Below are positions 7,748-58,834 of a DNA stretch of 64,000 nucleotides, in pieces. Where the stretch lies: positions 13,206,001 to 13,270,000 of the forward strand of contig NC_135830.1 in assembly GCF_964213995.1 (NCBI RefSeq), given 5' to 3'. The stretch's first letter is position 1, and each line of letters opens with the position of its first letter. The translations under genes were made by a program, and so were the position numbers. Source of the stretch: Mustelus asterias. Lineage: Eukaryota. A model generated the notes under the pieces. That model was given only the letters and a program-made list of their open reading frames with translations. It ran no database searches and had not been told where the DNA came from.

Positions 7748-8218
7748 TGGGGGTGAAACTCTGTCTCACTCTGGTTATTGTCCTGATTACAGGTGTGTCA
7801 TTTTGAACTTCTGCGTGAAATCTGCCAGTCACCACATTCATTCCCCATTTCCATCTGGAGGGGATTATTCCATTGTTGTTACTCCTTCTAACCCACTGCG
7901 TGTCTGTTACCTATTTTCAGACATGAGTAACGGTGACTCAGTGTCCCAGTCAGGACCAGGTGTTGAAGCAGCAGAGGGTGAAGATTCAGCAATACCCTGC
8001 AGTTACTCGGTACCGAGTACAGCTATACAACATTACTGTTCTGGTATCGCCAGTATACACACCGAGCTCCTCATTGACTGCTCAGAGCCGCGAATGTACG
8101 GGTCTCAAGGTTTTTTACATTGCAGCGGGAATCTCAACCTGAAACAAAGCACTTTTCACTTGCCCATGAAAGATTTGAAGGTGACAGACAACACCGAGAA
8201 TTACTGTGCACTGAGAGC
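7748..8218 (+). pseudogene. TCR alpha/delta-type V gene segment pseudogene (leader exon 7748-~7792, V exon 7921-8218)
   Basis: Leader MGVKLCLTLVIVLIT followed by a GT donor, acceptor TTTTCAG, then DSVSQ...C...YCALR; the FWYRQY motif is in a different frame and followed by TGA. Confidence 0.9.
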
Positions 8219-12649: not shown

Positions 12650-14383
12650 GGAGAGAGACTAAATGATTTTCTTTTGCATCCGTATTTACGGAAGAAACGG
12701 GCATGGAGTCTACGGAAATAGGGCAAACAGGTAGGGAGGTCATGGAACCTTTCCAGATTAAAGGGGAAGAGGTGCTCGCTGTCTTGAGGCAAATCAGAGT
12801 GGATAAATCCCCAGGACCAGACAGGGCATTCCCACGGACCTTGAGGGAAGCTAATGTTGAACTTGCAGGGGTCCTGGCAGACATATTTAAAATGTCAGTA
12901 TTCACGGGGGAGGTGCCGGATGATTGGAGGGTGGCTCATGTTGTTCCGTTGTTTAGAAAAGGTTCCAAAAGGAATCCTGGAAATTATAGGCCAGGAAGTT
13001 TGACATCGGTGGTGGGCAGGTTATTGGAAGGTGTGATAAGGGATAGGATCTACAAATATTTGGATAGACAGGGACTTATTAGGGAGAGTCAACATGGCTT
13101 TGTGCGTGGTAGGTCATGTTTGACCAATCTATTAGAGTTTTTCGAGGAGGTTACCAGGAAAGTGGATGAAGGGAAGGCGGTGGATGTTGTCTACCTGGAT
13201 TTCAGCAAGGCCTTTGACAAGGTCCCGCATCGGAGGTTCGTTAGGAATGTTCAGTCGCTAGGTATACATGGGGAGGTAGTAAATTGGATTAGACACTGGC
13301 TCAATTGAAGAAGCCAGAGAGTGGTTGTGGAGGACTGCTTCTCTGAGTGGAGGCCTGTGACTAGTGGTGTGCCGCGGGGATCGGTGTTGGGTCCATTGTT
13401 GTTTGTCATCTATATGAATGATCTGGATGATAATGTGGTAAATTGGATCAGCAAATTTGCTGATGATACAAAGATTGGAGGTGTAGTGGACAGTGAGGAA
13501 GGTTTTCAAAGCCTGCAGAGGGATTTGGACCAACTAGAAAAATGGGCTGAAAAATGGCAAATGGAATTTAACGCAGACAAGTGTGAGATATTGCACATTG
13601 GAAGACAAGCCAAAGTAGAACGTACAGGGTAAATGGTGGGACTCTGAAGAGTGCAGTTGAACAGAGGGATCTGGGAATACAGGTACAGAATTCCCTAAAA
13701 GTGACGTCACAGGTGGGTAGGGTCGTAAAGAGTGCCTTTGGTACATTGGCCTTTTTAAATCGGAGTATCGAGTATAAAAGTTGGAGTGTTATGGTAAGGT
13801 TATATAAGGCATTGGTGAGGCCGAATTTGGAGTATTGTGTACAGTTTTGGTCACCTAGTTACAGGAAGGATGTAAATAAGGTTGAAAGAGTGCAGAGAAG
13901 GTTCACAAGGATGTTGCCGGGACTTGAGAAGCTGAGTTATAGAGAGAGATTGAATAGGTTGGGACTTTATTCCCTGGAGCGTAGAAGATTGAGGGGAGAT
14001 TTGATAGAGGTGTATAAGATTTTGGTGGGTATAGATAGAGTGAATGCAAGCAGGCTTTTTCCGCTGAGGCTGGGGAGAAAACAACCAGAGGGCATGGGTA
14101 AGGGTGAAAGGAGAAAAGTTTAAAGGGAATATTAGGGTGGGCTTCTTCGCGCAGAGAGTGGTGGGAGTGTGGAATGAGCTGCCGGATAAAGTGGTAAATG
14201 CGGGGTCACTTTTAACATTTAAGAAAAACTTGGACGGGTTCATGGATGAGAGGGTGTGGAGGGATATGGTCCAAGTGCAGGTCAGTGGGACTAGGCAAAA
14301 AATGGTTCGGCACAGACAAGAAGGGCCAAAAGGCCTGTTTCTGAACTGTAAGTTTCTGTGGTTTTCTATGGTTTTCTATGGTT
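12650..14383 (+). mobile_element. 5'-truncated CR1 LINE, disrupted RT
   Basis: ORFs with DKSPGPD, NYRP, QHGF, YLDFSKAFD, GVPRGSVLGP, FADD; (TTCTATGGT)n tail. Confidence 0.96.
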
Positions 14384-14441: not shown

Positions 14442-14480
14442 AGTTTTTGTACAGGTTCAGCCCAGTTCTGTTTCTCTGTG
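14442..14480 (-). other. Recombination signal sequence, 23-bp spacer
   Basis: CACAGAG (14480-14474), 23 nt, ACAAAAACT (14450-14442). Confidence 0.93.
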
Positions 14481-14784
14481 GGTCTCAATGCGCAATAACA
14501 CACGCCAGAGTCTGCCAGCTCCGTTTTAGACACTTTCAGCGGGACGGTGCGGGTTGTGCAATTGAGCTCCGCTAAAAAACGGTCCTCTGGGAATCTCTCT
14601 GTGTTCTCGCTAACTCTATGTCTCGTCAGCAGGAACTCCATGGTCCCGCTGGGATACTGACGGTACCAGAATAAGTAAGGGGTGTTGCTTGTAGCTGTAT
14701 AATCACAGAGCAACTGAACATCATCTCCTTCAGTGACGGTGACTGCAGCCGCTGTTTGTGAAACAGAATCTCCTCCACGGTGTC
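14481..14784 (-). CDS. TCR alpha/delta-type V exon, reading frame intact
   Basis: After acceptor TTCCAG: HRGGDSVSQTAAAVTVTEGDDVQLLCDYTATSNTPYLFWYRQYPSGTMEFLL...RF...LKVSKTELADSGVCYCALR; both Ig cysteines and the conserved Trp are present. Confidence 0.9.
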
Positions 14785-19406: not shown

Positions 19407-21548
19407 CATAGAACATAGAACATAGAACATTACAGCGCAGAACAGGCCCTTCGGCCCACGATGTTGCACCGACCAGTTAAAAAAAAAACTGTGACCCTCC
19501 AACCTAAACCAATTTCTTTTCGTCCATGAACCTATCTACGGATCTCTTAAACGCCCCCAAACTAGGCGCATTTACAACTGATGCTGGCAGGGCATTCCAA
19601 TCCCTCACCACCCTCTGGGTAAAGAACCTACCCCTGACATCGGTTCTATAACTACCCCCCCTCAATTTAAAGCCATGCCCCCTCGTGCTGGATTTCTCCA
19701 TCAGAGGAAAAAGGCTATCACTATCCACCCTATCTAAACCTCTAATCATCTTATATGTTTCAATAAGATCCCCTCTTAGCCGCCGCCTTTCCAGCGAAAA
19801 CAATCCCAAATCCCTCAGCCTCTCCTCATAGGATCTCCCCTCCATACCAGGCAACATCCTGGTAAACCTCCTCTGCACCCTCTCCAAAGCCTCCACATCC
19901 TTCCTGTAATGTGGGGACCAGAACTGCACACAGTACTCCAAGTGCGGCCGCACCAGAGTTGTGTACAGTTGCAACATAACGCTACGACTCCTAAATTCAA
20001 TCCCCCTACCAATAAACGCCAAGACACCATATGCCTTCTTAACAACCTTATCTACTTGATTCCCAACTTTCAGGGATCTATGCACACATACACCTAGATC
20101 CCTCTGCTCCTCCACACTATTCAAAGTCCTCCCGTTAGCCCTATACTCAACACATCTGTTATTCCTACCAAAGTGAATTACCTCACACTTCTCCGCATTA
20201 AACTCCATCCGCCACCTCTCGGCCCAACTTTGCAACCTGTCTAAGTCTTCCTGCAAACTACGACACCCTTCCTCACTGTCTACCACACCACCGACTTTGG
20301 TGTCATCAGCAAATTTGCTAATCCACCCAACTATACCCTCATCCAGATCATTAATAAATATTACAAACAGCAGTGGCCCCAAAACAGATCCCTGAGGTAC
20401 ACCACTTGTAACCGCACTCCATGATGAATATTTACTATCAACCACCACCCTCTGTTTCCTATCCGCTAGCCAATTCCTGATCCAATTTCCTAGATCACCC
20501 CCAATCCCATACATCTGCATTTTCTGCAGAAGCCTACCATGGTGAACCTTATCAAACGCCTTACTAAAATCCATATATACCACGTCCACTGCCTTGCCCC
20601 CATCCACCTCCTTGGTCACTTTCTCAAAAAACTCAATAAGGTTAGTAAGGCACGACCTACCTGCCACAAAACCATGCTGACTATCACCTATCAATTCATT
20701 ACTCTCCAAATAACTATAAATCCTATCCCTTATAATTTTTTCCAACATCTTGCCTACAACAGAAGTGAGACTCACCGGTCTATAATTCCCGGGGAAGTCT
20801 CTGTTCCCCTTCTTAAACAATGGGACAACATTCGCTAACCTCCAATCTTCTGGTACTATACCAGAGGCCAACGACGACCTGAATATCAGAGCCAGAGGCT
20901 CTGCAATCACTTCTCTTGCCTCCCAGAGAATCCTTGGATAAATCCCATCCGGACCAGGGGATTTATCTATTTTCAGACCCTCCAGAATATCCTGCACATC
21001 CTCCTTATCAACTGTAATACTGTCTATTCTACTCCCCTGCAACCCAGTGTCCTCCTCAGCTATATTCATGTCCCCTTGCGTGAACACCGAAGAGAAATAT
21101 TGGTTCAATGCTTCACCAATCTCCTCCGGTTCCACACATAACTTCCCTCTGCCATCTATAACTGGCCCTAAACTTGCCCTAACCAACCTTCTGTTCTTGA
21201 CATACCTATAGAACGCCTTAGGATTCTCTTTAACCCTATCCGCCAAAGTCTTCTCATGTCCCCTTTTAGCCCTTCTAAGCTCGCTCTTCAACTCCCTCTT
21301 AGCCAATCTAAAGCTTTCTAGTGCACTACCCGAGTGCTCACGTCTCATCCGAACATAAGCCTCCTTTTTCTTTTTAACCAACAAAGAAACTTTTTTGGTG
21401 CACCACGGTTCCCTAGCCCTACCAATTCCTTCTTGCCTGACAGGGACATACCTATCACAGACTCGCAGTAGCTGCTCCTTGAAAAAACTCCACATGTCGG
21501 ACGTTCCCAGTCCCTGTAATCTCCTAGTCCAACCTATGTTTCCTAATT
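19407..21548 (-). mobile_element. Young 5'-truncated CR1 LINE with an uninterrupted 663-aa ORF2 fragment (RT domain, no endonuclease)
   Basis: ORF 19504-21495 has all RT motifs; (TTCTATG)n tail. Confidence 0.97.
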
Positions 21549-22120
21549 CTCAGGAACTGGATCAGGAAGATGAGATATCTGTGTCTCTTTATACTGTTAT
21601 CTCTAAACTCCATCTCCTCTCAATGCCGTGTGTCATACATTCGCTTTCCTTGCTTTCCAGGTGAAGATCGGGTTCACCAACTCTCTGTGTCTGTATCAAG
21701 CAGCTCATTGACCCTGGGAAATGAACAACCAGAGGGAACTTGATGAGAGGCAGCGACAGAAAAAGGAAGAGAAGCGACAGGATAATGTTTCATAAATGAG
21801 TTCTGCCAGTTGCTCTCCGTGGTGAATGTCTGCCGTGTGTTACCTTGTAAGTTTCACAGAAGCCACAGTGATGAGTTTGGTGAGATTTGGAAATTGAAAG
21901 TGCCACATGACCAGCTTGCGGTACTATTTCACCTCACGGTCGATTTCATGTTGCAGCTAACAGGATTCGCTGTTTTAATTGGCTGAACAGTCCCTTGGGT
22001 TCGATCTAAACATGACAATTTAAAGGAGAAACTTGTTTTTTGTGAATAAAGAGTCTGAAATAAAAATAAAAGGCAGAAGGCTCATGGATAAATCAATCTT
22101 TTAAAGAACTTAGGCCAGCT

Positions 22121-28880: not shown

Positions 28881-30041
28881 ACCCTCCGAGCTCTTTATAT
28901 TCTTGAGCAATCGTCCTCTGGGGCTGAAGCCGTTTTGCGAGGACAGTGGCTCCCAAACTTTTTTCACTGGGCCGCACTTTCGGAATAAAAATCTGCTCGC
29001 GCCACACCAAAATTTTTATTGATAAGAAATGCATTCAAAAACAAAAAAAAAGGCCTTTCCTCCTAGCAGTGCTTGATTCATAACATAGAACACAACTACT
29101 TTCTAATATGATCAAGCAACATCCAGAAAGTATAAAACAATGCAGCGACATAAAAACATGATTCATTCCCAAAATATACTTATAGACGAGCCTCTTACAT
29201 ATGGAACCTTAAGTAAGTATACAAACTCAATGAGAGCTGTGAGCATGTTTTTGTCAGCTAATCTCATTTATATTAGATGTAATTTGAGACAAACAAACTC
29301 TCATCTCCTCATCAACACAAAGAAGCCTTTCTCTTTTCTGGTCTTTGATATTTGTCAGAACTAAAAATCCCTGTTCACAACAATATGTCGTTGAGAACTG
29401 TAGAAGAATCGCTAATATTCTTGAAGAGATGTGTGGATACTGTTTCTGGTTGTATATCCAAAAAGAGTCCAGTGGCATACTCCCGTGTTTCATTTTCAAG
29501 GTGCTATCACTCGAAATGCAGGCCATTTCCTCCTCCTCATCCAATGTCAGACCTGAACAGCTGGAATTCGCAAAGCGGTCTCTAACACAGTCGATTTTTT
29601 CTGTCGACAACGATGGGAAGTAATGATCAATCTTTTCTACCAGTGTTGCAAGATTTTCCTGTCTGAGGCCGTACGATTCATTGCTCGTTTTAAAACTTGT
29701 TACCAGTGGGAAAATTTCGAGGTTATGTCGCATTGATCTTCTGAGCCAGAGCTGAAGCTTTTTTTTGAATGCAGTTAGTTTGTCTCTAGTTGTGAGGATA
29801 TTGTCATCGCGGCCTTGCATACTGGCATTGAGCACATTCAACCGGGAAAAGATATTGGCCAAATATGCCAGCTTTGCACACCAGTCATTGTCATCCAGTT
29901 GGTGGTACAATGGGGTCCCTTCTTGTTCCAAACATTCTCTTAATTTGTTCTTCAGCTCCAACACCCGATTTAAAACTTTTCCGCGGGACAGCCAGCAAAC
30001 CTCTGAGTGCAGAATTAGGCATTGATGTTTTGATTCTATGT

Positions 30042-31425
30042 TAAGAAAGGGAATAGAAATGACCCTGGTAATTATTGCCCGGTTAGTCTTACTTCGGTGG
30101 TTGGTAAGTTGATGGAAAAGGTCCTTCGGGATGGGATTTACGACCATTTAGAAAGATGCGGAATGATCCGGGATAGTCAGCACGGATTCGTGAAGGGCAA
30201 GTCGTGCCTCACAAATTTGATTGAATTTTTTGAGGAGGTAACGAAGTGTGTTGATGAAGGTCGGGCAGTTGATGTCATATACATGGATTTTAGTAAGGCG
30301 TTTGATAAGGTCCCCCATGGTCGGCTTATGATGAAAGTAAGGAGGTGTGGGATAGAGGGAAAGTTGGTCGATTGGATAGGTAATTGGCTATCTGAGCGAA
30401 GACAGAGGGTGGTGGTGGATGGAAAATTTTCGGACTGGAGGCAGGTTGCTAGTGGAGTGCCACAGGGATCAGTGCTTGGTCCTCTGCTCTTTGTGATTTT
30501 TACTAATGACTTAGAGGAGGGGGCTGAAGGGTGGATCAGTAAATTTGCGGATGACACCAAGATTGGTGGAGGAGTGGATGAGGTGGAGGGCTGTTGTAGA
30601 CTGCAAAGAGGCATAGATAGGATGCATAGCTGGGCTGAAAAATGGCAGATGGAGTTTAACCCTGAAATATGTGAGGTGATTCATTTTGGTAGGACAAATT
30701 TAAATGTGGATTACAGGGTCAAAAGTAGGGTTCTGAAGACTGGAGGAACATAGAGATCTTGGGGTCCATATCCACAGATGTCTGAAGGTTGCCACTCAAG
30801 TGGAGAGAGCTGTGAAGAAGGCCTATAGTGTGTTAGCTTTTATGAACAGGGGGTTGGAGTTTAAGAGCCGTGGGTTATGTTGCAACTGTACAGGACCTTG
30901 GTGAGACCACATTTGGAATATTGTGTGCAGTTCTGGACAACTCACTATAAGAAGGATGTGGAAGCGCTGGAAAGAGTGCGAAGGAGATTTACCAGGATGC
31001 TGCCTGGTTTGGAGGGTAGGTCTGATGAGGAAAGGTTGAGGGGGCCAGGGCTGTTCTCTCTGGAGCGGAGGAGGTTGAGGGGAGACTTAATAGAGGTTTA
31101 TAAAATGATGAAGGGGATAGATAGAGTGAACGTTCAAAGACTATTTCCTCGGGTGGATGGAGCTATTACAAGTGGGCATACCTATAGGGATCATGGTGGG
31201 AGATGTCGGAAGGATGTCCGAGGTAGGTTCTTTACGCAGAGAGTGGTTGGGGTGTGGAATGGACACGTGTGGAGTCAGACACTTTAGGAACATTTAAGCG
31301 GTTATTGGATAGGCACATGGAGCACACCAGAATGATCGGGAGTGGGATAGCTTGATCTTGGTTTCAGATAAAGATCGGCACAACATCATGGGCCAAAGGG
31401 CCTGTTCTGTGCTGAACTGTTCTAT
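30042..31425 (+). mobile_element. CR1 LINE inserted in the transposase gene
   Basis: ORFs 30097-30753 and 30877-31287 carry RT motifs. Confidence 0.95.
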
Positions 31426-31740
31426 GGGCGGCACGGTAGCACAGTGGTTAGCACTGCTGCTTCACAACTTCAGGGTCCCGGGATCGATTCCCAGCTCGGG
31501 TCACTGTCTGTGTGGAGTTTGCACATTCTCTTCGCGTCTGCATGGGTTTCCTCCCACAGTCCAAAGATGGTTCGGTTGATTGGCCAGGTTAAAAAAAAAA
31601 GAAGAAATTGCCCCTTAGAATCCTGAGATGCATAGGTGAGAGGGGTTAGCGGGTAAATATGTGGAGGTCGGGCCTGGGTGGGATTGTGGTCGGTGCAGAC
31701 TCGATGGGCCGAATGGCCTCCTTCTGCACTGTAGGGATTA
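31426..31740 (+). mobile_element. Full-length HE1-type SINE inserted in the CR1 tail
   Basis: gggcggcacggtagcacagtggttagc...ctgcactgtagggatt. Confidence 0.92.
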
Positions 31741-32984
31741 TATGTTCTATGTCTTTACAGAGTTGAGCAAATAACTGCACCTTTAGTTGTTTTGCTTTGA
31801 TGAAGTTCACACTGCGCACAGTCCGATCTAGAACCAACTTCAAATCAGTTACAAGGGTCTTGGTGATTAATGCCTCTCTGTGTAAAAAACAGTGAGTTGA
31901 TATTACATCTGGATTTTTCTGCTTGATGAGTGCCGCCAAGCCTCTCACATTCCCTATCACACATGGCGCTCCATCCGTACCAATTCCAACACAAGAATCC
32001 CATGAACTCTCAACTTTTTCCAAATACTCAGACAAGGTTTGGAAAATATCTTGTCCTCTGGTATGTTTTTCAAGTTCCTTGCAAAATAGAAACTGTGTGA
32101 TTATTTCGTCATTGTGAATGAATCTGATATAGGCAAGCAACTGTGCTTTTCCACTAATGTCGGTCGATTCATCAACTTGAATGGCAAATTTAGAATTCTT
32201 CATCCTTTCGGATACACGCTTCTCATTATTAGCTGACATATCAACTATTCTTGTGTGAATTGTATTATCAGACGAAGGAATTTCCATAACTTCTCGCTCA
32301 GCATCATCACCAAACAAAGTTTTCACAATCAAGCTGCAGGCAGGCTGAATCAATTTTTCAGCTATTGTATGTGGTTTTGTCTGTTGAGCAATCAATTCAG
32401 TCACTTGGTAAGATACAATCTGCATCTTATCTGAGACTGCCATTCGTTTTTTGAAATATGATGGTTGGCATTTCTGCTGTTCCAAAAGCCTTTCAAAATA
32501 TTGAACATCCTTGTTTGCCAGATTTCCATGTTTTGACAACAGATGTCTTTTCATCGTGCTTGGGACCATATTGGAATTGGAAATCTTCTCACCACAGATC
32601 AAACACATAGGCCGAGGTATGTTTTAATCACCAGTCCATTTGAAACCGAGACTCAGATAGCTATCCATATATTGTCGACAAACTTTCTTTTTTGGAGGTT
32701 TGCTTGGGCCTGCTACTGGTGTAGAATTAAACGATTCTTCTTCAGCACTCTGTTCGAACGGCGATTCTGGATCACAACGTGTACTCGGATCGTACTCAGC
32801 ATCACTTGGTGCTCTTGCTCTCACTTTGGACAAATATCTATCCATGTTTAAAAGTTTCTTTGATTGTCCAGCAGGCCTCAACGCCGGATCAGATCCTATG
32901 GGTCCCGGGTTTGCAGCTGCGGGGATTTTATCTGAGTTCTGGCCCAGTGCCGTGGCCGCCATGTGTAGGTTAGGAGATTAGAGG

Positions 32985-44959: not shown

Positions 44960-45867
44960 TCAGATCACTGTTTTAATGAACTGCACAATTCCAGTAAATG
45001 GTAGTTTCACCACATTCTTCAGATCCTCTCTGAATTGTGCCTGGGTCACAGCATAAATGCATGTGTTGGTGCAGCAACTCAGGAGTTGCAGCATAAATCC
45101 CAGTTCCTGCACAAATTCGGGCAAAATTGTACTAATTACTCTGATACGCTCCAATCGGCTACAAAACGAATAGATGAGGAACACTGACCATAACAAGATG
45201 AAATTTCCCGATATTGCAAACAGTAAGATAATGGATTTCCTTCTCTTTTCTATCTCTGGGTCACTTTCACTTCCCCCACTCTTGTGGCTCCGAAGTCTCC
45301 TGCGGACTTTGCTGGACACTAAAATGTGTTTAACGGTTATAACATTGAGCAGCAGAATCAACAAGAAAGGAACAAATGGATTTAAAATATAGTGTACAAT
45401 TTCAACTGCTGCCCACACTCCTGATTCTGTAACAGCATAATGTACATAACAAAACCAAGGATTATTTCCGAAAGAATATTTATCGCCACACATGAAGTAC
45501 CAGAAAGTATTCTTTACAGTGAACACCACACTCACTGTTCCGAGAACCACAGCTGCCGTTTTCTCGGTGCAGTGTTTTATTTTCAGTTTCTGACAAGTAA
45601 TGGCGACGAAACGATCAAAGGTGAAAGCGACAGTGAACCAGACAGAACAATCAGTGACTGCGTAAAGCAGGACAGCATGGATATTACACACTCTCATGTG
45701 AGCCATGAACCGAAATTGATGAAAAAAACGGATAGTAATTTGTCTCAATATGAGATCAATGATAACGACCAGTAGATCTGCCGCTGACATCGAAATTAGG
45801 TAACGTGTGACACATTTGGAAAGCCCACACCTTCCTCGTGATAGGATAAGAATCGTCAGTAAGTTCA
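44960..45867 (-). CDS. GPR139-like class A GPCR, coding exon 2
   Basis: VNLLTILILSR, ADLLV, SVWFTVAFTFDRFVAI, ECL2 Cys, NTCIY; acceptor CCTTACAG; TGA at 44960. Confidence 0.93.
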
Positions 45868-46494
45868 CTGTAAGGAAGAGAGGCACAATTAATTCATATT
45901 TCAGACTGAGATCAGGGGCAGCGATCTTTCAGGGTCCTGTGGAACATTTGCAGCTTTCTTTTATAGTCCAACCTCAGAATAGAATGACTTCACCTGTAAC
46001 CTTTCTTTCACCTGGAGAAAGAGGTTAAAGGAATAAAACACCGCATTAATGTAGCAAGAAATACAATTATCCAACAGATGTAATCTATTTGCTGCCTTGT
46101 GCAGGATTTCCCTTTGGGAGACATAATATTTTTGGCTGAAATGCAACACAAACGTGTTTCTGGTGCTAGACACTGCTGTGTCTGTGCTAAAATCTGTCCA
46201 TTTGTACATCTTGGATAAGTTGCTTTGGACTTGCTTGTGAATCGCGAAGCTGGTCTTTTTTTAGCTGATGTTAAGCTACTTTGTCACTTCGACGGGAAGT
46301 GTCAAAGTGACAGTCGGGAATGGAGGATGCGGGGAGTACCTGGCTGCTTGATGTCTGGAGAAGAGCGGGTGGCTCTTTGGGGCAGGTGCGGAGGGCGGGG
46401 GTCGGAGGTTGCTGGAGCAGCTAACGGTGCTTTCAAAGTGGGCGGATTTCATGCCGGAGCTGCAATCGAGCTGACTATTCTTGCGAGTTTATCC

Positions 46495-46565
46495 ATGTGT
46501 GTGTGTGTGTATTTGTGTGTGTGTGTGTGCGCGCGCGCGCGTGCGTCCGTGTGTGCCTGTGTGTA
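46495..46565. repeat. (GT)n(GC)n microsatellite
   Basis: Direct reading. Confidence 0.9.
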
Positions 46566-46567
46566 TG

Positions 46568-48595
46568 TCATAGAGTAATAGAGTCAAAGTGGTTTGCAGC
46601 ACGGCCATTGGGCCGAATTTGTCCACGCTGCCCTGTTTTTACCATTAACCTGGTACCAACTATCCCTCGACACCACTCTGACCCATGTAGCTTTCTAAAT
46701 GGTTTTTCAAAGACAACGTTGTACCCGCCTCTACTACTACCTCTGGCAGTTTATTCCAGGCACTCACCGCCCTCTCTGAGAAAAATCGATCCTCTGGACC
46801 CTTTTGTTTCTCTCCCCGCTCATCTTAATCTTATGCCCTCTTCTTTCAGACTCCCCTACATTTGGGAACATATGTTCACTATCGACACCATCTATGCCCC
46901 TCATTATTTTAGAGACTTCTGTTAGATCACCCCTGGGCGGCACAATGGCACGGTGATTGGCATTGCTGCCTCATAGCGCCATGGACCTGGGTTTGATTCC
47001 CAGCTTGTGTCACTGCCTGTGTGGAGTTTGCACATTCTCCCCGTGCCTGTGTGTGTTTCCTCTGGGTGCTCAGGTTTCCTCACACAGTTCAAAGATGTGC
47101 AGGTTAGGTTGATTGGACATAGTAAATTGCCACGTAGCGTCAGGGGGGCGAGCATGGTAAATGCTGAGTGTCACGGGAATAGGGGCTGGGTAAGATTGTG
47201 TTCGGTACAGACTCGATGGGCAAAATGGCCTCCTCCTGCACTGTAGGGATTCTATGATATAAGCCTCCTCTGATCCAGGGAAGAAATGTCGCAGCCTATC
47301 CAGCCTCTGGTAATAACTCAAACCATCAAGTCCCGGTAGCAACAGACTATATTTTCTTTGCATTCTTTCCAGCTTAATAATTTTTTTTCGTATAATAGGG
47401 TGACTCCAATTGGACATCATATTACATTTGTGGCGTTGCCAATATTTCGTGCAACTTCAATGAGACGTCCCAACTTCTGCATTCAATTTTCTGACCAACG
47501 AAACCAAGAATGCCGAATGCCTTATTCATCACTCTGTCCACCTGTGACTCCACTTTCAAGGAGATATATAGCATGAGATATATTTGTTCTATGACTCTCT
47601 CAACGCCCTACAATTTACTGAATATATGCTGCACAGGTTCGATCTACGAAAATGCATCACCTCACATTTATCTAAATTTAACTCAATCTGCCATTCATCA
47701 TCCCATTGGTCCAACTGTTCAAGAGCACGTGGCAATCATAAATAACTTAAATTGTCAACTGTACTACCAATTTTGCTGTCTGCTGCAAACGTACTAAATT
47801 CTCATCCAATTCATTAATATAAATGACATACGCCAGTGGACCCAGCATAGATCCGTGAGGCACAGCGTTGGTCACAGGCGTCCAGTTTGAAAAACAATCT
47901 TGTACAACCACCCTCTGCCTTCTGTCTTCAAGTTAGTTTTGTATCCAATTGGCTACCTCACCCTGCATCCATTGAGATGAAACTTTATGCACCAACCTAT
48001 CATGCGGTACCCTGCCAATTGCCTTGTTAAAATCCAAATAGACATCATCGACTGCACTGCCCTCCTTCTCGATAATATGTGCACTCCTCAAGACATCGAT
48101 ATTTATTTCCCCAAGTTCCCTAACAGCCATGCCTTTCTCAGTAGCAAATACTGATGAGAAATATTCATTTAGGATCTCAGCCATCTCTTGTGGCTCCACA
48201 CATAGATGACCTTGTTGATTCTTAAGGGGCCCTATTTTCTCCCCAGTCACTCTTTTGCACTTTGTGTGTTTGTAGAAGCTCTATGCATTTCCTTGACGTT
48301 ATCTGCCAAAGCAATTTCGTGTCCCATTTTTGTTCTCCTGATTTATCGCTTAACTTTACCCCAACACCCTCTATACAATTCAAGGGATCCAGTTGATCCC
48401 AGTTGCCTATGCTTTTTGCTTCTTGACCAGGGCCTCAACATCCCAAGTCATCCAGGGTTCCCTATTTCTACCAGCCTTGCTCTTCACCCTGAAAGGAATG
48501 TGCTTACCCTGAACCTTTGTTAACACACTGTTTAAAGACTTCCACTTACCAGACGTCAATTTGCTTGCCAATAGACTCCCCCAATTTAGAGATTG
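46568..48595 (-). mobile_element. Old, fragmented CR1 LINE in the GPCR intron
   Basis: Minus-strand ORF pieces IGPLKNQQGHLCVEP, VYLDFNKA, LERMQRK. Confidence 0.85.
46935..47258 (+). mobile_element. HE1-type SINE nested in CR1
   Basis: gggcggcac head, gtagggattctatga tail. Confidence 0.9.
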
Positions 48596-48859
48596 ATAGT
48601 GCATTTGTGGGAGACATTGTGCGTGAACGCGAGAGTATGTGCCAGATTGTTTTTAAGAATTGTGCGTGTGCGAGGGATTGTTTGTGAGAGAGAGTGATTG
48701 CGTGGGAGAGATATATACGTATCATGTTAGAGGAATAGAGTGGGGTTGTGTATGAGAGAGAGTTGTTGTGTGTATTTTGGTGGTGGGAAGTGATTTCACT
48801 TCCAGCATCAGATTTCATACAGCCTCACTGCCACGCACCAATACGCCCACATTTCAGTG

Positions 48860-49040
48860 TTTCCTCCCACAATCCGAAAGACATGTTGATTAGGTGCATT
48901 GGCCATGCTAAATTCTCCCTCAGTGTACACAAACAGGCGCCGGAATGTGGTGACTCGGGGACTTTCACAGTAACTTCATTGTAATGTTAACATCAGTCTA
49001 CTTGTGACACTAATAAATAAACTTAAAACTTAAATAAACT
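48860..49040 (+). mobile_element. SINE 3' part with 'B' tail
   Basis: tttcacagtaacttcattg...cttgtgacactaataaataaacttaaa. Confidence 0.85.
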
Positions 49041-50674
49041 ATTCCTCCTGAGACCTGAGCCATCATAGCGAACATTGTACAGCTAACCCATTTCCCTTCG
49101 GATGATGCTTCGACGAATTTGAACGAATTGGGAACAGGAAAAGTTGTTGACCCTGGCAATTGGCCAGTGTGAGAGCTGTCGACCTGCACAGCAGATCAAG
49201 TCACTCCTTAAGGCTACCTGCTAAGTTGCTGTGAAATAAAAGTGATGAAACCTCATACATAAAGTCAACCATCAACATGTATTAAGGATAAATGGAAAGT
49301 TGAATCCGTGGGACATTGAGAGAAGCCGATATTACATCTCAAATATTATACAGCCGTTAGAAGCTAATGCAAAGATAGAACTTTTGCATTAAAGAACGAC
49401 ACAGAAATGGCGTTACCAACGATCATTAAATAAAACAGTATGATATTTCACAGACTTATAATACCGATTCAAAACTGTCTCCATTGAAACAGCACTCGCA
49501 GATAGTTCCATAATAAATTCACCCTGAGAGGACATGGCGGAAATGATATTTTGATTCATTGTTTAGCACTGGGATGTTACATTTGATAAGAACATTACTT
49601 TGATTCTCAGAGTTTACAGACATCACTTTTTGGAACATCATAATCATAACGGGACATCTAAATGCATTATCCAATCAGCAGTAGGATATCTATTGAACCC
49701 CTGATGCCCTGTGAACTCATGGGTACATCAGACCGATTATATCGTATAACACAATGGATTGTTTACAGGCCTAGTAACAGTTCAAATTTTGATCACTACT
49801 TCTAATCCACAGCTAATGTGGAATCACAATACATCACAACAGCCATAAATGCGGGATCAGAATAATACAATCGATCAGATTCCATATTCGCTTTTCATTG
49901 TCCTGACATGTTACATTGTTCACTTAAGCTCTTCCAGTCCCTTTATTGCTCCATAGTCGGTAGGCAATACAAGCCGAAACCATCGCCTGGTGAGTTGCTG
50001 CATTAACACAGTCCTCCCGTTAGTCACTTATGCCTTCGACCTGAGTAATCACATTCCTCTCTGCTCCCAAATAAGTGTGGAATTAACAGATAGTCAAACC
50101 ATATATTGTTAAAAATATATTTCTGAGCTATTTAAAGTATTGCTGGCATGGCAGAGAAACAACAGATAATTGGAAATATAAATTCAACTCGTTCTTTCTC
50201 AACTGGACATTTAAAATAATATGAATCGGGTAATCAAGGTGAGTCAGAAAATTGCCAGGCGATTTTCACATGCAGTGTGAATGGTGAGAAGCGAATAGGC
50301 CTGAAGCTTAACCCAGACTTCAATAATTCACAAATCAAATTATGAATTTAGCAACTCGTTTTTGAGAGGTAGCAACACAATGAAGGCCCGCATTGATGTT
50401 GTTGTCATGGGAACAGCCTAGAAGAAGGATAACCCAGACTCAAAACGTTTCCTCTATTCTTTCTCAACAGATGCTGGCAGACCAGACCAGTTAAATTGGT
50501 CCATCATTTCTTGCTTTCCTCCAGACTTCAATATCTTTAATCCCGGAAAAGCAACTGAAATAATCATCCCGAACAATGGTGACGATATCAAGAAAACTGA
50601 CTGCATGCATGAAGATGGATCCAAATATTAATTGGACTGCCACTTTTGCATAAACCGTTGAAACAGCGCTAAAT

Positions 50675-51143
50675 AAGAAGTGCAGAGGAGATTTACGAGA
50701 ATGCTGACTGGTTTGGAGGGTAGGTCTTATGAGGAAAGGTTGAGGGAGCTAGGGCTGTTCTCTCTGGAGCGGAGGAGGCTGAGGGGAGACTTAATAGAGG
50801 TTTATAAAATAATGAAGGGGATAGATAGAGTGAACGTTCAAAGACTATTTCCTCGGGTGGATGGAGCTATTACAAGGGGGCATAACTATAGGGTTCGTGG
50901 TGGGAGATACAGGAAGGATATCAGAGGTAGGTTCTTTACGCAGAGAGTGGTTGGGGTGTGGAATGGACTGCCTGCAGTGATAGTGGAGTCAGACACTTTA
51001 GGAACATTTAAGCGGTTATTGGATAGGCACATGGAGCACACCAGGATGATAGGGAGTGGGATAGCTTGATCTTGGTTTCAGATAAAGCTCGGCACAACAT
51101 CGTGGGCCGAAGGGCCTGTTCTGTGCTGTACTGTACTGTTCTA
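50675..51143 (+). mobile_element. CR1 LINE 3' end
   Basis: ORF 50680-51069; same subfamily as 30042-31425. Confidence 0.95.
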
Positions 51144-51469
51144 TAAATTCACCCTGAGAGGACATAACTTGAATGATATTTTGATTCATTGTTTCGCACT
51201 GGGATGGTACATTTGATAAGAACATTACTTTGATTCTCAGAGTTTACAGACATCACTTGTTGGAACGTCATCATCATACCGGGACATCTAAATGCATTAT
51301 CCAATCAGCTGTAGAATATCTATTGAATGCCTGATGCCCTGTGAACTCATGGGTACATCAGACCGGTTATCTCATATTATCCCTGCTCGAAATCAAGTTA
51401 TAAAAAGAACAAGGAACAAAATGTCTCTTCGTTTGTAGGATATGATTTGTCCTCACCTCATTGAGTCTT

Positions 51470-51730
51470 TAGATGTATGGACTGCTCAACACTCGCAGAA
51501 GTAGTGTGCTGTTCCAGTCCATCTTTACTATGACTGATAGAGCACAACACGAATTGGCCAAATGGTTTTGCGAGGAGCTCCAAACAGATCTGAGCAAGTT
51601 TACCACAAACACACTGAAGGATCCATCAACATTTCCAACATCTCACAGCACCTGCATATCGATAGCAATTCTGTGTTCATGCATCGATCAATATGGTCAG
51701 CTTGTTCACAAATGTACCACTCAAGGGAGT
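51470..51730 (+). mobile_element. Penelope-like RT fragment
   Basis: YGL...AQHELAKW...LKD and VSLFTNVPL motifs. Confidence 0.7.
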
Positions 51731-52578
51731 CAAAAACTTTTGCTGACATGGTGGTCTAATGAATCTTCATTAATTGAAATTAAGAATGTAGCAAATCGTT
51801 TGTGTGAGGTAGGGACACAATTGAGGCCTGAATAGATGGTGTTGCCAAGGATCATTCCAGGCTCAGCTCCTGCAAAAATCTTTATCAGTTTAAATCTCCA
51901 CCCATCAGAGTCTACTTGCCAACCAATCAACTCTATCTTCTCAAATAACCTGAAATATTGTTCTCGTGTAAGAGTTGGTCATTTCTTTAAAGGTCTCTTC
52001 CAATGCGTAAGTCTAAAAAAAAGGTAAAACGTTTCCTTTTCAGCAATAATCGGGAAATGAAATAATAATTTCACTGGAACAGTGTTTTAGTTCCAGTTCT
52101 ATCCTGCTACATAGATTCCATAATGAGGAAGCAGAGCAGGAAAATGTGAAGTGCATTGGAAATTGCTGCATATATCTGAGTTTAATTGCGGTATATCTGC
52201 CAGCGCTACTTTTCACGGATCAGCAACATTAACAACATACAGCAAGGTTCAAAAGCCTCTTACTATACATTTTCCTGGTTCCTACTGTGATTCAGTCTGG
52301 AAAGCAATCTGCGTCTTCCCATGAAAGGGAACTGAAGGTTGAATATATTTTCAATGATTATCTCCACATTTATTCAAATCTAAAGCAAAATAACTGCAGC
52401 CATGTATGTTGGCTGTTTCAAACTATTTGTGGAGCTGCGACCATTGAGCCTGCTAGAGATCAAATATTATATGAACTGCTCCCAGGGCATTAGCAGATAC
52501 AGGCTATTAAGGTTACACAGAATGCTGTCCATAACTGCATTTCATGGACCGGGTGATAAATGCAGTGAAATAACTCAC

Positions 52579-52675
52579 CAGTGACACCAACGGCAGCGAG
52601 GAGTGGATAGTAAATTTTTTGGATATCGTAAAGTACCCATTGAATACGAAGATCAAGTGGAATAATCCATAACAT
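52579..52675 (-). CDS. GPR139-like GPCR, coding exon 1
   Basis: accATG MLWIIPLDLRIQWVLYDIQKIYYPLLAAVGVT-G|GTGAGT; the phase-1 join to exon 2 (G+TG=Val) gives 334 aa. Confidence 0.9.
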
Positions 52676-52772: not shown

Positions 52773-53461
52773 GAGTGAGGAATGTCCCCAGCGAAACAAT
52801 TAAACTAAGTGCTGACTGAAATTAATCACAATCGCTAATACACGAGATAATTCAGCATTTCTTGCGAAATACATGTTTATTGAAAATGCTTTGCACTCAT
52901 GTTGGACGATTGCGCCAATGCCATATGAATCTGAACAATCTTTTGAAATGAAGAATATTGAATCGCACAGTTACTGATCTGAAGTGAAATAAAATCAGAA
53001 CTATTATCCTTGTTGATAAATGTCAGTCTACAATTTCAAAATTTCATTCCGTATATAAGTGTGAATTTACTAGAGATTGTGGAAATAATGTTGATCTATC
53101 AGTTGATACATGAGACATGCCAGAGGCAGGATGATTGCAAATATTACACTGCTGCTATTCAGCAAACTCGAGACATAAACTCTCGAAATCAAGGCACTGA
53201 ACCTCACATTCATCCTTGTTTTCAGGAGACTTCTTCGAAAGTAAACTAGGTCACCTCTCCAACCTGCTTTGCAAACACATCTCAATATTCTTTGTATTAT
53301 TGGTGATCAATGGGAAAGTGCCATGGATACCAGACTCAGCATCAAATCTTCTAAACCATACATTTCTCCTTTCAGTGAGTGTGGAAGCAATTCTATCGAT
53401 CCAGAGATATTTTCGACAGCAGATTTAAGTGGGTATCATTTGACTCTCCACTGTCGATCCG

Positions 53462-54870: not shown

Positions 54871-56864
54871 GGACTAGCCACCTCCCCCAGATAGGTGGAA
54901 ATTTATGATTATGAACATTGAATTCTTTAGATAATTCCTGTCATATAATCCCTCTATATGTTTTTGATCTGTTCAGTTCTTCCAAGCCGGGCGGAGATTG
55001 AAGAATAACACTGCTCCATAAGTGTTAACACAATTATTGAAAACTTCCTGAGCCATCTGAGATTTATTGATCATATGATCACTGTTTGAAGTCTTAATCA
55101 ATTTGTTAAGAAAATATTTATATTGCACTTTCAATGTTCTCATCCAAACATTATATCTACAGTATGCAGTGCGTTGGTTGTGAAGGTTCAGCTGTCAAAA
55201 AATAATCCAAATTGTGGATAATATTCTTTGTGGACGGACATTACGACATTGACCAACACGTCCACACCTTCATCAAGGCCTCTCTCTCCCTTTCTGGCCT
55301 CTGGTTCTATTCTATCTCTGCAGTGACCAATTCTCCGTCCCGATATCACGACACGTTCTCCACCCCATGCATTTACTTCATTCATCCTTCTGTCCGCAAA
55401 AGCCATTTCACTCATTCTGCATTCACAGTTTCATCCCACGCTTAACTGTGGATGAGCCTTCTGAAAGCATCGGTGAATTCGGCAGCGTTTGTAATATTTT
55501 GTTTCGGGTGACCTTGATGATGTTCATCCTAAGGAAGGAAATGCTGAATTGTGACTGTTCAGATTGGACCGGACATCATTGAGATACCACAGCATTTTTC
55601 ATTCAGGGACAGCGGCTGGTGATCTGCAGAACTCGGTTTCCGTCACGAACTGAAGGAAATACTGGAATAATTGTGGCTCAAGCTGCTAAATGCAAGTTTG
55701 GGCTTTGATGGATTGGGCAGGGTGAAGTGTGACAGTCAGTTACACTCGGAGGAAAGGTCTAATTAGGGCTCATTGTGGGTCAGTCCTATATAGAGGGTGG
55801 TTAGGTGGGTTACTGCAACTAGGTTTCGGACAGAGAACTTTGGAATGGGGCCCTGTGGTTAACCATGGGATAAAGAAGTGTTAGATGCGGTATTGCAATT
55901 TTGCCTGGGGAAGGGACATTTGGTTTGGGTCAGTATTTATTGGCCTGGGACAGGACTGTTGAAATTGGAATGCTTACTTTATCTCCGGACAGGGGCTACT
56001 AAGGTGATTCAGTGTGGTGCGTTCAGGGCGAGGGACCGATGATGTGAGCAAGTCTAATTGAGTCAAGGGCCGAGGCAATTCAAGGGGCTGTGTGTTATCA
56101 TCTAGTTCGGGGAGCGACGAGGTGGCAAAATGTGGGTCTATAATTGACAGAAATATGTGAGGTTGGATAGTAGGTTTCGGTGTCAGGATGGGATTGGTGA
56201 GATGGGACAGTGTGGTTCTGTCTAGAAAAATGTGTCGTATTGTGAGACAGGCTGGTTAAATCGGGGACAGCGACATATCAGGTGAAACATTATGGATCAG
56301 ATTGGGAAAGGGACTGATGAGACGGGACAATGTTTATAAAACCAGGCCAGCTTCCCATGGGGTATTTCACATTGTGAAATGGAACAGACAGTTGGAGTAA
56401 TGTGATTGATTCTAGAGCATTAACCAATGAATTGGGACAGTTTGGCATTGACTGGTGAAGGTTTACAGTGTGGTGTATTTTGGGGCAGGGTAAGTGGAGT
56501 TCCGCTGGTGAAACTTGGACTAGTGCAAGGCCTGGTGATGAGTTACCGTGTGATTCAGTGTGAGACAGGGAAGGACACTGTCAATGAATATCACCGTGTA
56601 ATCTGCGAAGTGTGACATTATTGTTCAGTCCGGGATAGGGGCTGATAAATTGGGGCAGTGACGTTCAATCTGGGAATAGGAGAGATTTGCAGTGGGTGGA
56701 TATTTGACGGAGGGTAGAGCTTTACAGGGGAGAGTTTTGCAGTCGGTCAGTTTTCATGCCCAAATGCTTTCTCCTGAGACGGTACATTGAAACCCTGTCT
56801 TCACAATAAGAATGTATTGACTGCAAATCATGACATCTGAACTTTTAAAACAGGAGTTTTAACA

Positions 56865-58834
56865 GGTGAATAAGAAAAGAGAGGCGTACAGAAGGTTCAG
56901 AGAGCTAGGAGGTGTTAAGGATTTAGAGGAGTATACGGGATGTAGGAAGGAGCTTAAGAAGCAAATTAGGAGAGCGAGAAGGGGTCATGAGAAGACGTTG
57001 GCGGGTAAGATTAAGGAGAATCCCAAGGCTTTCTACAAATATGTCAAGAGTAAAAAGATGAGATGTGAAGGCATAGGACCCTTAAAAGGTGAAGGGGGAA
57101 ATGTTTGTGCGGAACCGTTAGAAATGGCGGAGGTGCTTAATGAATACTTTACCTCGGTATTCACGGTGGAAAGGGATCTGGGTGGTTGTACTGCTGGTTT
57201 GCGGTGGACAGAAAGGATCGAGCATGTGGACATAAAGAAAGAGGATGTGTTGGAACTATTGAATGGCATCAAGGTTGGTAAGTCGCCGGGACCGGATGGG
57301 ATGTACCCCAGGTTACTGTGGGAGGCGAGGGAGGAGATTGCGGAGCCTTTGGCGATGATCTTCGCATCGTCGATGGAGACGGGAGAGGTTCCGGAGGATT
57401 GGAGAATTGCAGATGTGGTCCCTATATTCAAGAAAGGGAACAGGGACAGCCCGGGAAATTACCGACCGGTGAGTCTAACCTCAGTGGTTGGTACGTTGAT
57501 GGAGAGGATCCTGAGAGACAGGATTTATGATCATCTAGAGAAGTTTAGTATGATCAAAAGTAGTCAGCACGGCTTTGTCAAGGGCAGATCGTGCCTTACG
57601 AGCCTGGTTGAGTTCTTTGAAAATGTGACCAAACACATTGACGAAGGAAGAGCGGTGGATGTGGTCTATATGGACTTCAGCAAGGCGTTCGATAAGGTCC
57701 CCCATGCAAGACTTCTTGAGAAAGTGAGAGGGCATGGGATCCAAGGGGCTGTTGCCTTGTGGATCCAGAACTGGCTTGCCTGCAGAAGGCAGAGAGTGGC
57801 TGTGGAGGGGTCTTTCTCTGCATGGAGGTCAGTGACCAGTGGAGTGCCCCAGGGATCTGTTCTGGGACCCTTGCTGTTTGTCATTTTCATAAATGACCTG
57901 GATGAGGAAGTGGAGGGATGGGTTGGTAAGTTTGCTGACGACACCAAGGTAGGTGGTGTTGTGGATAGTTTGGAGGGATGTCAGAAGTTGCATCGAGACA
58001 TAGATAGAATGCAAGACTGGGCGGAGAAGTGGCAGATGGACTTCAACCCGGATAAGTGTGTAGTGATCCATTTTGGCAGATCCAATGGGATGAAGCAGCA
58101 GTATAATATGAAGGGTACCATTCTTAGCAGTGCAGAGGATCAGAAGGACCTTGGGGTCCGGGTCCATAGGACTCTTAAATCGGCCTCGCAGGTGGAGGAT
58201 GCGGTCAAGAAGGCGTATGGCGTACTAGCTTTCATTAATCGAGGGATTGAGTTTAGGAGTCGGGAGATAATGCTGCAGCTTTATAGGACCCTGGTTAGAC
58301 CCCACTTGGAGTACTGCGCGCAGTTCTGGTCACCTCATTACAGGAAAGATGTTGAAGCCATTGAAAGGGTGCAGAGGAGATTTACAAGGATGTTGCCTGG
58401 ATTGGGGGGCATGCCTTATGAGGATAGGTTGAGGGAGCTTGGTCTCTTCTCCCTGGAGAGACGAAGGATGAGAGGTGACCTGATAGAGGTTTACAAGATG
58501 TTGAGAGGTCTGGATAGGGTAGACTCTCAGAGGCTATTTCCAAGGGCTGAAATGGTTGCTACGAGAGGACACAGGTTTAAGGTGCTGGGGGGTAGGTACA
58601 GAGGAGATGTCAGGGGTAAGTTTTTCACTCAGAGGGTGGTGGGTGAGTGGAATCGGCTGACGTCGGTGGTGGTGGAGGCAAACTCGTTGGGGTCTTTTAA
58701 GAGACTTCTGGATGAGTACATGGGATTTAATGGGATTGAGGGCGATAGATAGGCCTCGAGGTAGGGATATGATCAGCGCAACTTGTGGGCCGAAGGGCCT
58801 GTTTGTGCTGTGGCTTTCTATGTTCTATGTTCTA
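56865..58834 (+). mobile_element. Young 5'-truncated CR1 with an uninterrupted 628-aa ORF2 fragment
   Basis: ORF 56866-58752 has complete RT motifs; (TTCTATG)n tail. Confidence 0.97.

What the first reader, a model, noticed from the sequence alone, without database searches (positions are those of the whole stretch)
44960..52675. Intact two-exon GPR139-like receptor, candidate member of an expanded amino-acid-sensing family
Seen: exon 1 (visible only as a short ORF 6.7 kb away) splices in phase 1 to exon 2, giving a 334-aa 7TM protein with DRF, TM3/ECL2 cysteines and NTCIY in place of NPxxY. The N-terminus is very short with no N-glycosylation sequon, and there is an upstream TATA. The ORF has stayed open in a heavily decayed region. 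Established: GPR139 and GPR142 respond to aromatic amino acids, and sharks have few classical OR genes. Inference: too divergent to be the GPR139 ortholog; it may belong to a chondrichthyan paralog expansion acting as an unrecognised chemosensory or immune receptor repertoire.
Basis: partly seen in the sequence, partly recalled or inferred. Interest (0 to 1): 0.72.

Follow-up and report, generated by a model that had tools for sequence, protein, structure and literature searches.

The report
Shark mega-family receptor among immune genes
This is an intact cell-surface receptor gene from a shark family of well over a thousand copies that databases mislabel as GPR139; its variable outer face and smell-gene-like promoter suggest an overlooked chemical-sensing repertoire, but where it is expressed and what it detects are untested.

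Summary
The two-exon, 334-aa class A GPCR is real; all 22 closest paralogs carry the same upstream exon 1. It is not the GPR139 or GPR142 ortholog: both lie elsewhere in this genome and a joint clade is rejected (p-AU 0.0008). It belongs to an elasmobranch expansion, sister to an amphibian/sturgeon orphan, with 1,863 exact matches to one TM3 motif here (haplotype duplicates not removed) and 28 of 40 sampled copies open. The extracellular face evolves at pN/pS about 1.0 against 0.26 elsewhere. The Trp/Phe site is only partly kept, so amino-acid sensing is unsupported. An O/E(EBF)-like site lies just upstream of the TATA box in 10 of 15 promoters (background 8%). This copy sits among TCR V segments and was duplicated with one. 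Best reading: olfactory-type repertoire (0.5); rival immune (0.2), as EBF also acts in B cells. No expression data. Ten literature searches found no description. The scan noted this family before on other DNA (18 findings).

The parts
52797..52802 (-). homeodomain-type site TAATTG, 30 nt before the TATA box (weak evidence)
   Evidence: HD-type hexamer in 9 of 15 promoters, 22.5% of 417 background windows, 7 of 500 shuffles (p 0.014); motif recalled
52785..52794 (-). O/E (EBF)-like palindrome, one mismatch, 22 nt before the TATA box
   Evidence: at most 2 mismatches in 10 of 15 promoters (8 of them at -20 to -22), 7.7% of 417 background windows, 0 of 500 shuffles; consensus as tabulated in PMC3247239
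52767..52772 (-). TATA box
52579..52675 (-). coding exon 1 (32 codons + 1 nt): short N-terminus and first half of TM1
45868..52578 (-). phase-1 GT-AG intron, 6,711 nt, at the position shared with this genome's GPR139, GPR142, L031 and L032
44960..45867 (-). coding exon 2: rest of TM1 to the stop codon
44926..44931 (-). AATAAA polyadenylation signal
14442..14784 (-). open TCR alpha/delta-type V exon with heptamer-23-nonamer RSS, co-duplicated with the receptor

Best explanation
This is an intact member of a very large elasmobranch family of class A GPCRs, distinct from GPR139/GPR142, that likely serves as an unrecognised olfactory-type chemoreceptor repertoire. Shown: gene anatomy, family size, birth-and-death clusters, a conserved signalling side with a fast-changing extracellular face, and a conserved O/E-like site before the TATA box. 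Inferred: O/E (with homeodomain) factors switch on single copies in sensory neurons; each paralog binds different water-borne ligands through its remodelled pocket and signals through one shared G protein (from my own knowledge, PLC/TRPC2 signalling would fit shark microvillous neurons; trpc2 expression there is stated in PMC11979771 section 11). This copy's place among TCR V segments is inferred to be hitch-hiking in segmental duplications of the antigen-receptor region, not an immune role.
For: Size: 1,863 exact matches to an 8-codon TM3 motif and 1,161 to an 11-codon TM7 motif, reversed controls 0; only 45 of 95 listed TM7 hits also had the TM3 motif, so the union is about 2,500. 28 of 40 loci sampled evenly from the first 100 listed have an open exon 2. 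Breadth: 2,032 protein clusters at E<=1e-10, top 120 all sharks; skates and a stingray too. Loop entropy in 28 intact paralogs: ECL1-3 2.0, 2.0, 2.4 bits; ICL1-3 0.85, 1.1, 1.5; TM3 0.78. pN/pS extracellular vs rest: 1.04 vs 0.26 in 20 close copies (Fisher p 0.0004), 0.63 vs 0.23 in 7 (p 0.019); median dN/dS 0.88 vs 0.18 over 290 non-independent pairs. [quoted passage not shown] Most sampled clusters lie on C5, C8 and other large contigs, away from C71; Ig octamer in 0 of 15 promoters. Known catshark OR, ORA and TAAR families have 5-8 genes each (PMC6368271, abstract).
Against: No transcript, tissue or ligand data. O/E-1 is EBF1, which also drives B-cell genes (my knowledge), so the site does not separate nose from lymphocyte. 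The 15 promoters are homologous, so the shuffle test shows conservation of one element, not 15 independent events; TATA positions were picked by hand-written rules, one promoter without TATA was dropped, and 5 of 15 miss the threshold. The homeodomain signal is weak (p 0.014). Extracellular pN/pS is about 1, not above 1, which relaxed constraint also gives; a third clade (6 copies on C8) showed no contrast (0.35 vs 0.26, p 0.22). This copy lies among TCR V and C1-set exons. The 50 most specific genes of a catshark brain plus olfactory library held no GPCR (PMC11979771 section 11), a weak point since known V2Rs were also absent. Counts include possible haplotype duplicates (13 of the 22 closest copies are on small contigs, some identical).
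Confidence: 0.5

Rival explanations
1. Immune sensor repertoire: EBF drives the genes in B-lineage or other leukocytes, and the variable outer face reads microbial or inflammatory ligands, as formyl-peptide receptors do; residence in the antigen-receptor complex reflects shared regulation.
For: The gene lies 30 kb from an open TCR V with a 23-RSS, and V plus receptor recur 30-41 kb apart in the same orientation at 5 places. C71 carries many V and C1-set exons, like the antigen-receptor complex of PMC12227049 (section 6). EBF sites fit B cells (my knowledge).
Against: Large clusters lie on C5, C8 and others, with the same promoter element; no octamer in 15 promoters; PMC12227049 main text and its 2 text supplements do not mention these receptors.
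Confidence: 0.2
2. Non-olfactory chemosensing or peptide signalling: the family works in gut, skin, gill, taste or reproductive tissue, or detects endogenous peptides, like its neuropeptide-receptor relatives.
For: GPR139 is related to invertebrate MIP, proctolin and FMRFamide receptors (PMC12208981 section 8); the fold search ranks peptide receptors and GPR139 about equally; EBF factors act in many neurons and other tissues (my knowledge).
Against: Over a thousand paralogs with variable pockets far exceeds any plausible set of endogenous ligands.
Confidence: 0.18
3. Mostly non-adaptive amplification: a few functional genes were multiplied by repeat-driven segmental duplication and gene conversion, most copies being redundant; assembly duplicates inflate the count.
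For: Identical copies on different contigs; mosaic similarity between exon 1 and exon 2; 12 of 40 sampled copies broken; extracellular pN/pS near 1.
Against: dN/dS 0.18-0.26 outside the extracellular face even among the youngest copies; many old sub-lineages (median 49% identity) shared across shark orders and batoids; conserved promoter element.
Confidence: 0.1
4. It is a GPR139/142-type aromatic amino-acid sensor (ortholog or functional equivalent).
For: Same intron position and phase; H5x43 and W6x48 kept, aromatic at 3x33; GPR139 ranks second in the fold search.
Against: True orthologs are elsewhere; 23% and 21% identity to them; joint clade rejected; N7x38 and R6x51 replaced by F.
Confidence: 0.04

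Closest known systems
GPR139 and GPR142 (L-Trp/L-Phe-activated class A orphans; PDB 7VUG, 9M42)
   Same: Class A fold, short N-terminus, same phase-1 intron in TM1, H5x43 and W6x48, nearest mammalian branch in the tree.
   Different: Single-copy and conserved, present separately in this genome; 21-23% identity; N7x38 and R6x51 lost; the family here has thousands of loci.
Amphibian/sturgeon orphan annotated 'probable GPR139' (P0241, P0289, P0291, P0305) and the coelacanth/teleost orphan P0243/P0255; probably the 'GPR210' group of Rinne et al. 2019 (PMC6504862, passages seen)
   Same: Sister lineages of the family (99/91 and 100/98 support); TM7 and helix-8 signature shared; 26-28% identity.
   Different: One cluster per species listed in amphibians and single loci L031, L032 here; they keep a basic residue at 6x51. 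The match to GPR210 rests on species range and tree position, not on accession numbers; 'shark' and 'cartilaginous' do not occur in that paper's main text.
Vertebrate OR, TAAR, V1R/ORA and V2R/OlfC repertoires
   Same: Clustered birth-and-death evolution, compact genes, variable ligand face, O/E site and TATA near the start as in mouse ORs.
   Different: No sequence membership (only 7tm_1 hit); independent origin from a neuropeptide-receptor-related lineage; sensory expression not shown.
Elasmobranch antigen-receptor complex (Flajnik et al. 2025, PMC12227049; abstract, section 6, searched passages and 2 supplements)
   Same: Scattered TCR alpha/delta V exons among Ig clusters, as on C71.
   Different: The paper reports no GPCRs there; here a receptor subfamily is interspersed and co-duplicated with V segments.

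Membership tests
Class A (rhodopsin-like) GPCR | Seven-helix bundle, Pfam 7tm_1 | tested here: met
   E 4.5e-20 over 72.7 bits, cut-off 30.5; model pLDDT 90.2; TM-scores about 0.7 to class A structures
Class A (rhodopsin-like) GPCR | D/ERY, TM3-ECL2 cysteines, NPxxY | tested here: met
   DRF, C93 and C172, NTCIY; D, R, both C, N and Y at least 90% conserved in 63 rows; the proline of NPxxY is absent
GPR139 / GPR142 orthologs | Groups with the single-copy orthologs | tested here: not met
   Own-genome L038 and L037 form a separate 100/100 clade; family plus GPR139/142 rejected, p-AU 0.00076, 20 rows
GPR139 / GPR142 orthologs | Trp/Phe site F3x33, H5x43, W6x48, N7x38 | tested here: not met
   Y, H, W, F in this gene; N7x38 in 0 of 28 intact paralogs; residues from the abstract of PMC5430874
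GPR139 / GPR142 orthologs | Phase-1 intron in TM1 | tested here: met
   Same acceptor position in L037, L038, L031, L032 and this gene; shared by the whole group, so not diagnostic; the human gene was not examined
GPR210 orphan group (Rinne 2019) | Clade with coelacanth, gar and teleost orphans next to GPR139/142 | tested here: inconclusive
   Family joins P0243, P0255, L031, L032 at 100/98 and 96/97; identity of these with the paper's Ensembl entries not checked
OR / V1R / V2R / T2R families | Match to the family's own profile | tested here: not met
   Only PF00001 at E<=0.01
Chemoreceptor-type repertoire (works like) | Large clustered family with pseudogenes | tested here: met
   1,863 and 1,161 motif loci; 12 of 40 broken
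Chemoreceptor-type repertoire (works like) | Variable ligand face, conserved signalling face | tested here: met
   2 of 3 clades significant; no excess over neutrality shown
Chemoreceptor-type repertoire (works like) | O/E and homeodomain sites near the start | tested here: inconclusive
   O/E-like 10 of 15 vs 7.7%; HD 9 of 15 vs 22.5%; homologous promoters; EBF not specific to the nose
Chemoreceptor-type repertoire (works like) | Sparse, one-gene-per-neuron expression in sensory epithelium; response to external ligands | not testable with these tools
Immune receptor family | Linkage to antigen-receptor genes | tested here: inconclusive
   True for the C71 subfamilies; many clusters lie elsewhere
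Immune receptor family | Ig-type octamer promoter | tested here: not met
   0 of 15

The most novel reading that the evidence does not exclude
Sharks and rays smell mainly with a further vertebrate chemoreceptor family, built independently from a GPR139-related orphan and holding over a thousand intact genes per genome, chosen singly through O/E-TATA promoters; it would rival the largest mammalian OR repertoires and overturn the view that sharks have few olfactory receptors.
Probability: 0.4. Interest if true: 0.95.

Novelty: new variant of a known kind. Interest (0 to 1): 0.77.

Why it matters
Published repertoires give sharks 5-8 ORs, ORAs and TAARs each plus V2Rs (PMC6368271), and a whale-shark genome paper speaks of a relative paucity of GPCRs in cartilaginous fishes (PMC8455134, passage). 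A family with about 2,000 or more loci in one shark, hidden under the automatic label 'probable GPR139', contradicts that paucity whatever its function. If olfactory, it explains how sharks discriminate odours and gives a second natural experiment in receptor gene choice; if immune, it is a new leukocyte sensor family linked to the antigen-receptor complex. Existing 20-tissue nurse-shark RNA-seq that includes olfactory epithelium (described in PMC12227049) can decide between these at once.

Tried and rejected
Expression: no RNA holder listed. Four runs of unknown kind were laid on exon 2 and the adjoining intron end; cover ran on into the intron, as for DNA, so they say nothing on splicing; summed depth peaked at TM3, in line with many copies, but is no copy number. 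Single-sequence AlphaFold of P0003 failed (pLDDT 43). The sequence search of solved structures with exon 2 ranked muscarinic and PAF receptors above GPR139 (E 1.5e-5) and the fold search does not discriminate among class A receptors; neither was used for placement. My first 'intact' rule (25 of 40) wrongly failed three full frames on a TM7 pattern; (28 of 40) uses frame length only. A capture-recapture figure of about 3,900 loci was set aside because the two motifs vary by clade and only C4-C8 were listed. Exon 1 was not found within 10 kb in 5 of 20 paralogs. Literature: ten searches found no description of the family; term look-ups in PMC11979771, PMC8455134, PMC10620051, PMC12227049 and PMC13113109 gave no GPR139 hit, and in bioRxiv 2025.06.08.657570 the only 'GPR' was GPR91. 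The library lacks most subscription journals; the supplement of PMC11979771 could not be read and that of the bioRxiv tandem-gene survey is closed, and both may list these genes. No TCR constant region was identified on C71, so 'antigen-receptor complex' rests on V and C1-set exons.
Full report
Observation. The gene is as described. On the minus strand, exon 1 (52675-52579) ends in phase 1 at a GT donor, a 6,711-nt intron follows, and exon 2 (45867-44960) completes a 334-aa frame with no N-glycosylation sequon; TATAAA lies 97 nt before the ATG and AATAAA 29 nt after the stop. Exon 2 matches Pfam 7tm_1 alone and folds as a class A bundle at pLDDT 90 from a 63-row alignment. No RNA shows the splice, but 22 of 22 paralogs at 92-100% protein identity have the exon-1/promoter block 6-9 kb upstream on the same strand, an annotated Heptranchias protein agrees with exon 1 at 22 of 33 residues, and a profile found a like exon with a phase-1 donor in 15 of 20 distant paralogs.

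Not GPR139. A motif taken from the GPR139 structure alignment hit exactly two places in this genome, which translate as GPR139-like (L038) and GPR142-like (L037) genes (names given by likeness to the aligned human chain and by my knowledge). A coelacanth orphan found one further locus at 60% identity (L031) and a more distant one (L032). All four have the exon-2 acceptor at the same TM1 position and phase as the window gene, so they form one gene group. In a 60-row maximum-likelihood tree the 44 elasmobranch rows form a clade (96/91), sister to an amphibian plus sturgeon lineage (99/91); with L031, L032 and their coelacanth and silverside partners they stand apart (100/98) from GPR139+GPR142 (100/100). 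In a 20-row subset one catshark row fell outside the family fork, but holding the family with GPR139/142 was rejected (p-AU 0.00076). The root rests on five long invertebrate rows. Rinne et al. (PMC6504862, passages) named an orphan GPR210 with three subtypes beside GPR139/142 in gar, teleosts and coelacanth; these are probably the sister lineages, unverified by accession.

Size of the family. The protein search of the genome scored 131 of 5,851 candidates, all at 60% identity or more, 16 with stops. An 8-codon TM3 motif has 1,863 exact matches and an 11-codon TM7 motif 1,161, with 0 for the reversed controls. Where both lists overlap, 45 of 95 TM7 hits also carried the TM3 motif, giving a union near 2,500. 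Of 40 loci taken evenly from the first 100 listed (C4, C5, C8 only), 28 have an open exon 2; median pairwise identity is 49%. Some counts are inflated by small contigs that may be second haplotypes: 13 of the 22 closest copies lie on them and five pairs are identical; dense clusters on 140-150 Mb contigs are not explained that way. Public proteins: 2,032 clusters at E<=1e-10, the top 120 all from four shark genera, 119 named 'probable GPR139'; sampled more distant hits come from other sharks, skates and a stingray. No chimaera was seen among the rows I named.

Selection and pocket. In 28 intact paralogs the extracellular loops carry 2.0-2.4 bits of entropy, ICL1 and ICL2 0.85-1.1, TM3 0.78 (its region labels run one residue off). 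Among the 20 open close copies pN/pS is 1.04 on the extracellular face and 0.26 elsewhere (p 0.0004); a second subfamily gives 0.63 and 0.23 (p 0.019), a third 0.35 and 0.26 (p 0.22); 290 non-independent pairs give medians 0.88 and 0.18. So the gene is under purifying selection, and its outer face changes about as fast as neutral DNA; positive selection is not shown. The GPR139 Trp/Phe site (F3x33, H5x43, W6x48, N7x38; PMC5430874, abstract) reads Y, H, W, F here; across the 28, only W6x48 is fixed, and N7x38 and R6x51 (the latter recalled) never occur. Amino-acid sensing of the GPR139 kind is therefore unsupported.

Promoter. An earlier AI note of this scan claimed smell-gene-like control sequences, so I tested it. 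In 15 promoters (14 distant paralogs plus this gene; one without a TATA dropped) a palindrome within 2 mismatches of the O/E consensus lies 5-45 nt before the TATA box in 10, in 8 of them at -20 to -22, against 7.7% of 417 background windows and 0 of 500 shuffles; homeodomain hexamers occur in 9 (22.5% background, p 0.014), the Ig octamer in none. [quoted passage not shown] Two cautions: the promoters share ancestry, and O/E-1 is EBF1, also a B-cell factor (my knowledge).

Neighbourhood. 30 kb downstream lies an open V exon most like TCR alpha chains with a 23-spacer RSS. Relatives of this V (150 scored of 1,643 candidates) and C1-set exons fall on C71 and on the same small contigs as the receptor subfamily, and V plus receptor recur 30-41 kb apart, same orientation, at five places. 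This fits the antigen-receptor complex with scattered TCR V exons (PMC12227049, section 6; the paper was a lead), whose text and readable supplements do not mention these receptors. As the promoter here has the same layout as those on C5 and C8, I read the linkage as hitch-hiking, but it keeps the immune rival alive.

Verdict. A real, intact gene (about 0.95) in a very large, apparently undescribed elasmobranch GPCR family that is not GPR139. It most likely works as an olfactory-type repertoire (0.5), with immune (0.2), other sensing (0.18), largely neutral amplification (0.1) and Trp/Phe sensing (0.04) as rivals. Ten searches of the held library found no account of it; closed journals and unread supplements may hold one. 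The scan has noted the family before on other DNA (18 findings in at least 6 genomes; also in this genome); those notes are not independent support. What this window adds is a subfamily embedded in, and co-duplicated with, the TCR V field.

Noticed in passing
window 14442-14784 (-): Open TCR alpha/delta-type V exon with AG acceptor and heptamer-23-nonamer RSS; no leader exon was identified by a simple scan of 900 nt upstream.
   Followed up: partly
window 7932-8216 (+): Second, diverged V-like exon (28% to the first, E 1.9e-5) in the opposite orientation; no RSS found by the scan.
   Followed up: no
G000:C143 and C147 paralogs (L008, L002): Mosaic similarity: C143 is about 100% identical to the window in exon 1 plus promoter but 96.5% in exon 2, C147 is 96% and 99.0%; suggests ectopic recombination or gene conversion among copies.
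   Followed up: partly
L031 (G000:C25:56717627-56718637) and L032 (G000:C5:28699655-28700542): Two further single-locus orphans of the GPR139/142 group in this shark, L031 60% identical to a coelacanth protein; probably GPR210-type genes not reported in sharks.
   Followed up: partly
P0241, P0286-P0305: A conserved amphibian and sturgeon orphan, one cluster per listed species, is the sister of the shark family and a good proxy for the ancestral function; no amniote appeared among the 25 hits.
   Followed up: partly
L086, L088; P0009, P0017: One sub-lineage has a long N-terminus made of tandem 14-residue repeats that each hold an N-x-T sequon, unlike the very short N-terminus here.
   Followed up: no
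P0182 (Chiloscyllium) cluster: An annotated model joins a coiled-coil/TRIM-like region to a family receptor; cluster members include a RING-type protein; may be a gene-model fusion.
   Followed up: no
promoters L081-L098: A second shared upstream motif: TGTTT(A/G)(C/T) in 7 of 15 (11% background) and T(T/G)TTCA in 8 of 15 (14%); factor unknown, forkhead-like by recall.
   Followed up: no
window 19504-21549, 56863-58752, 12667-14123, 29254-32977: Long LINE reverse-transcriptase frames and hAT-type transposase remnants (recognised by eye from the ORF list).
   Followed up: no
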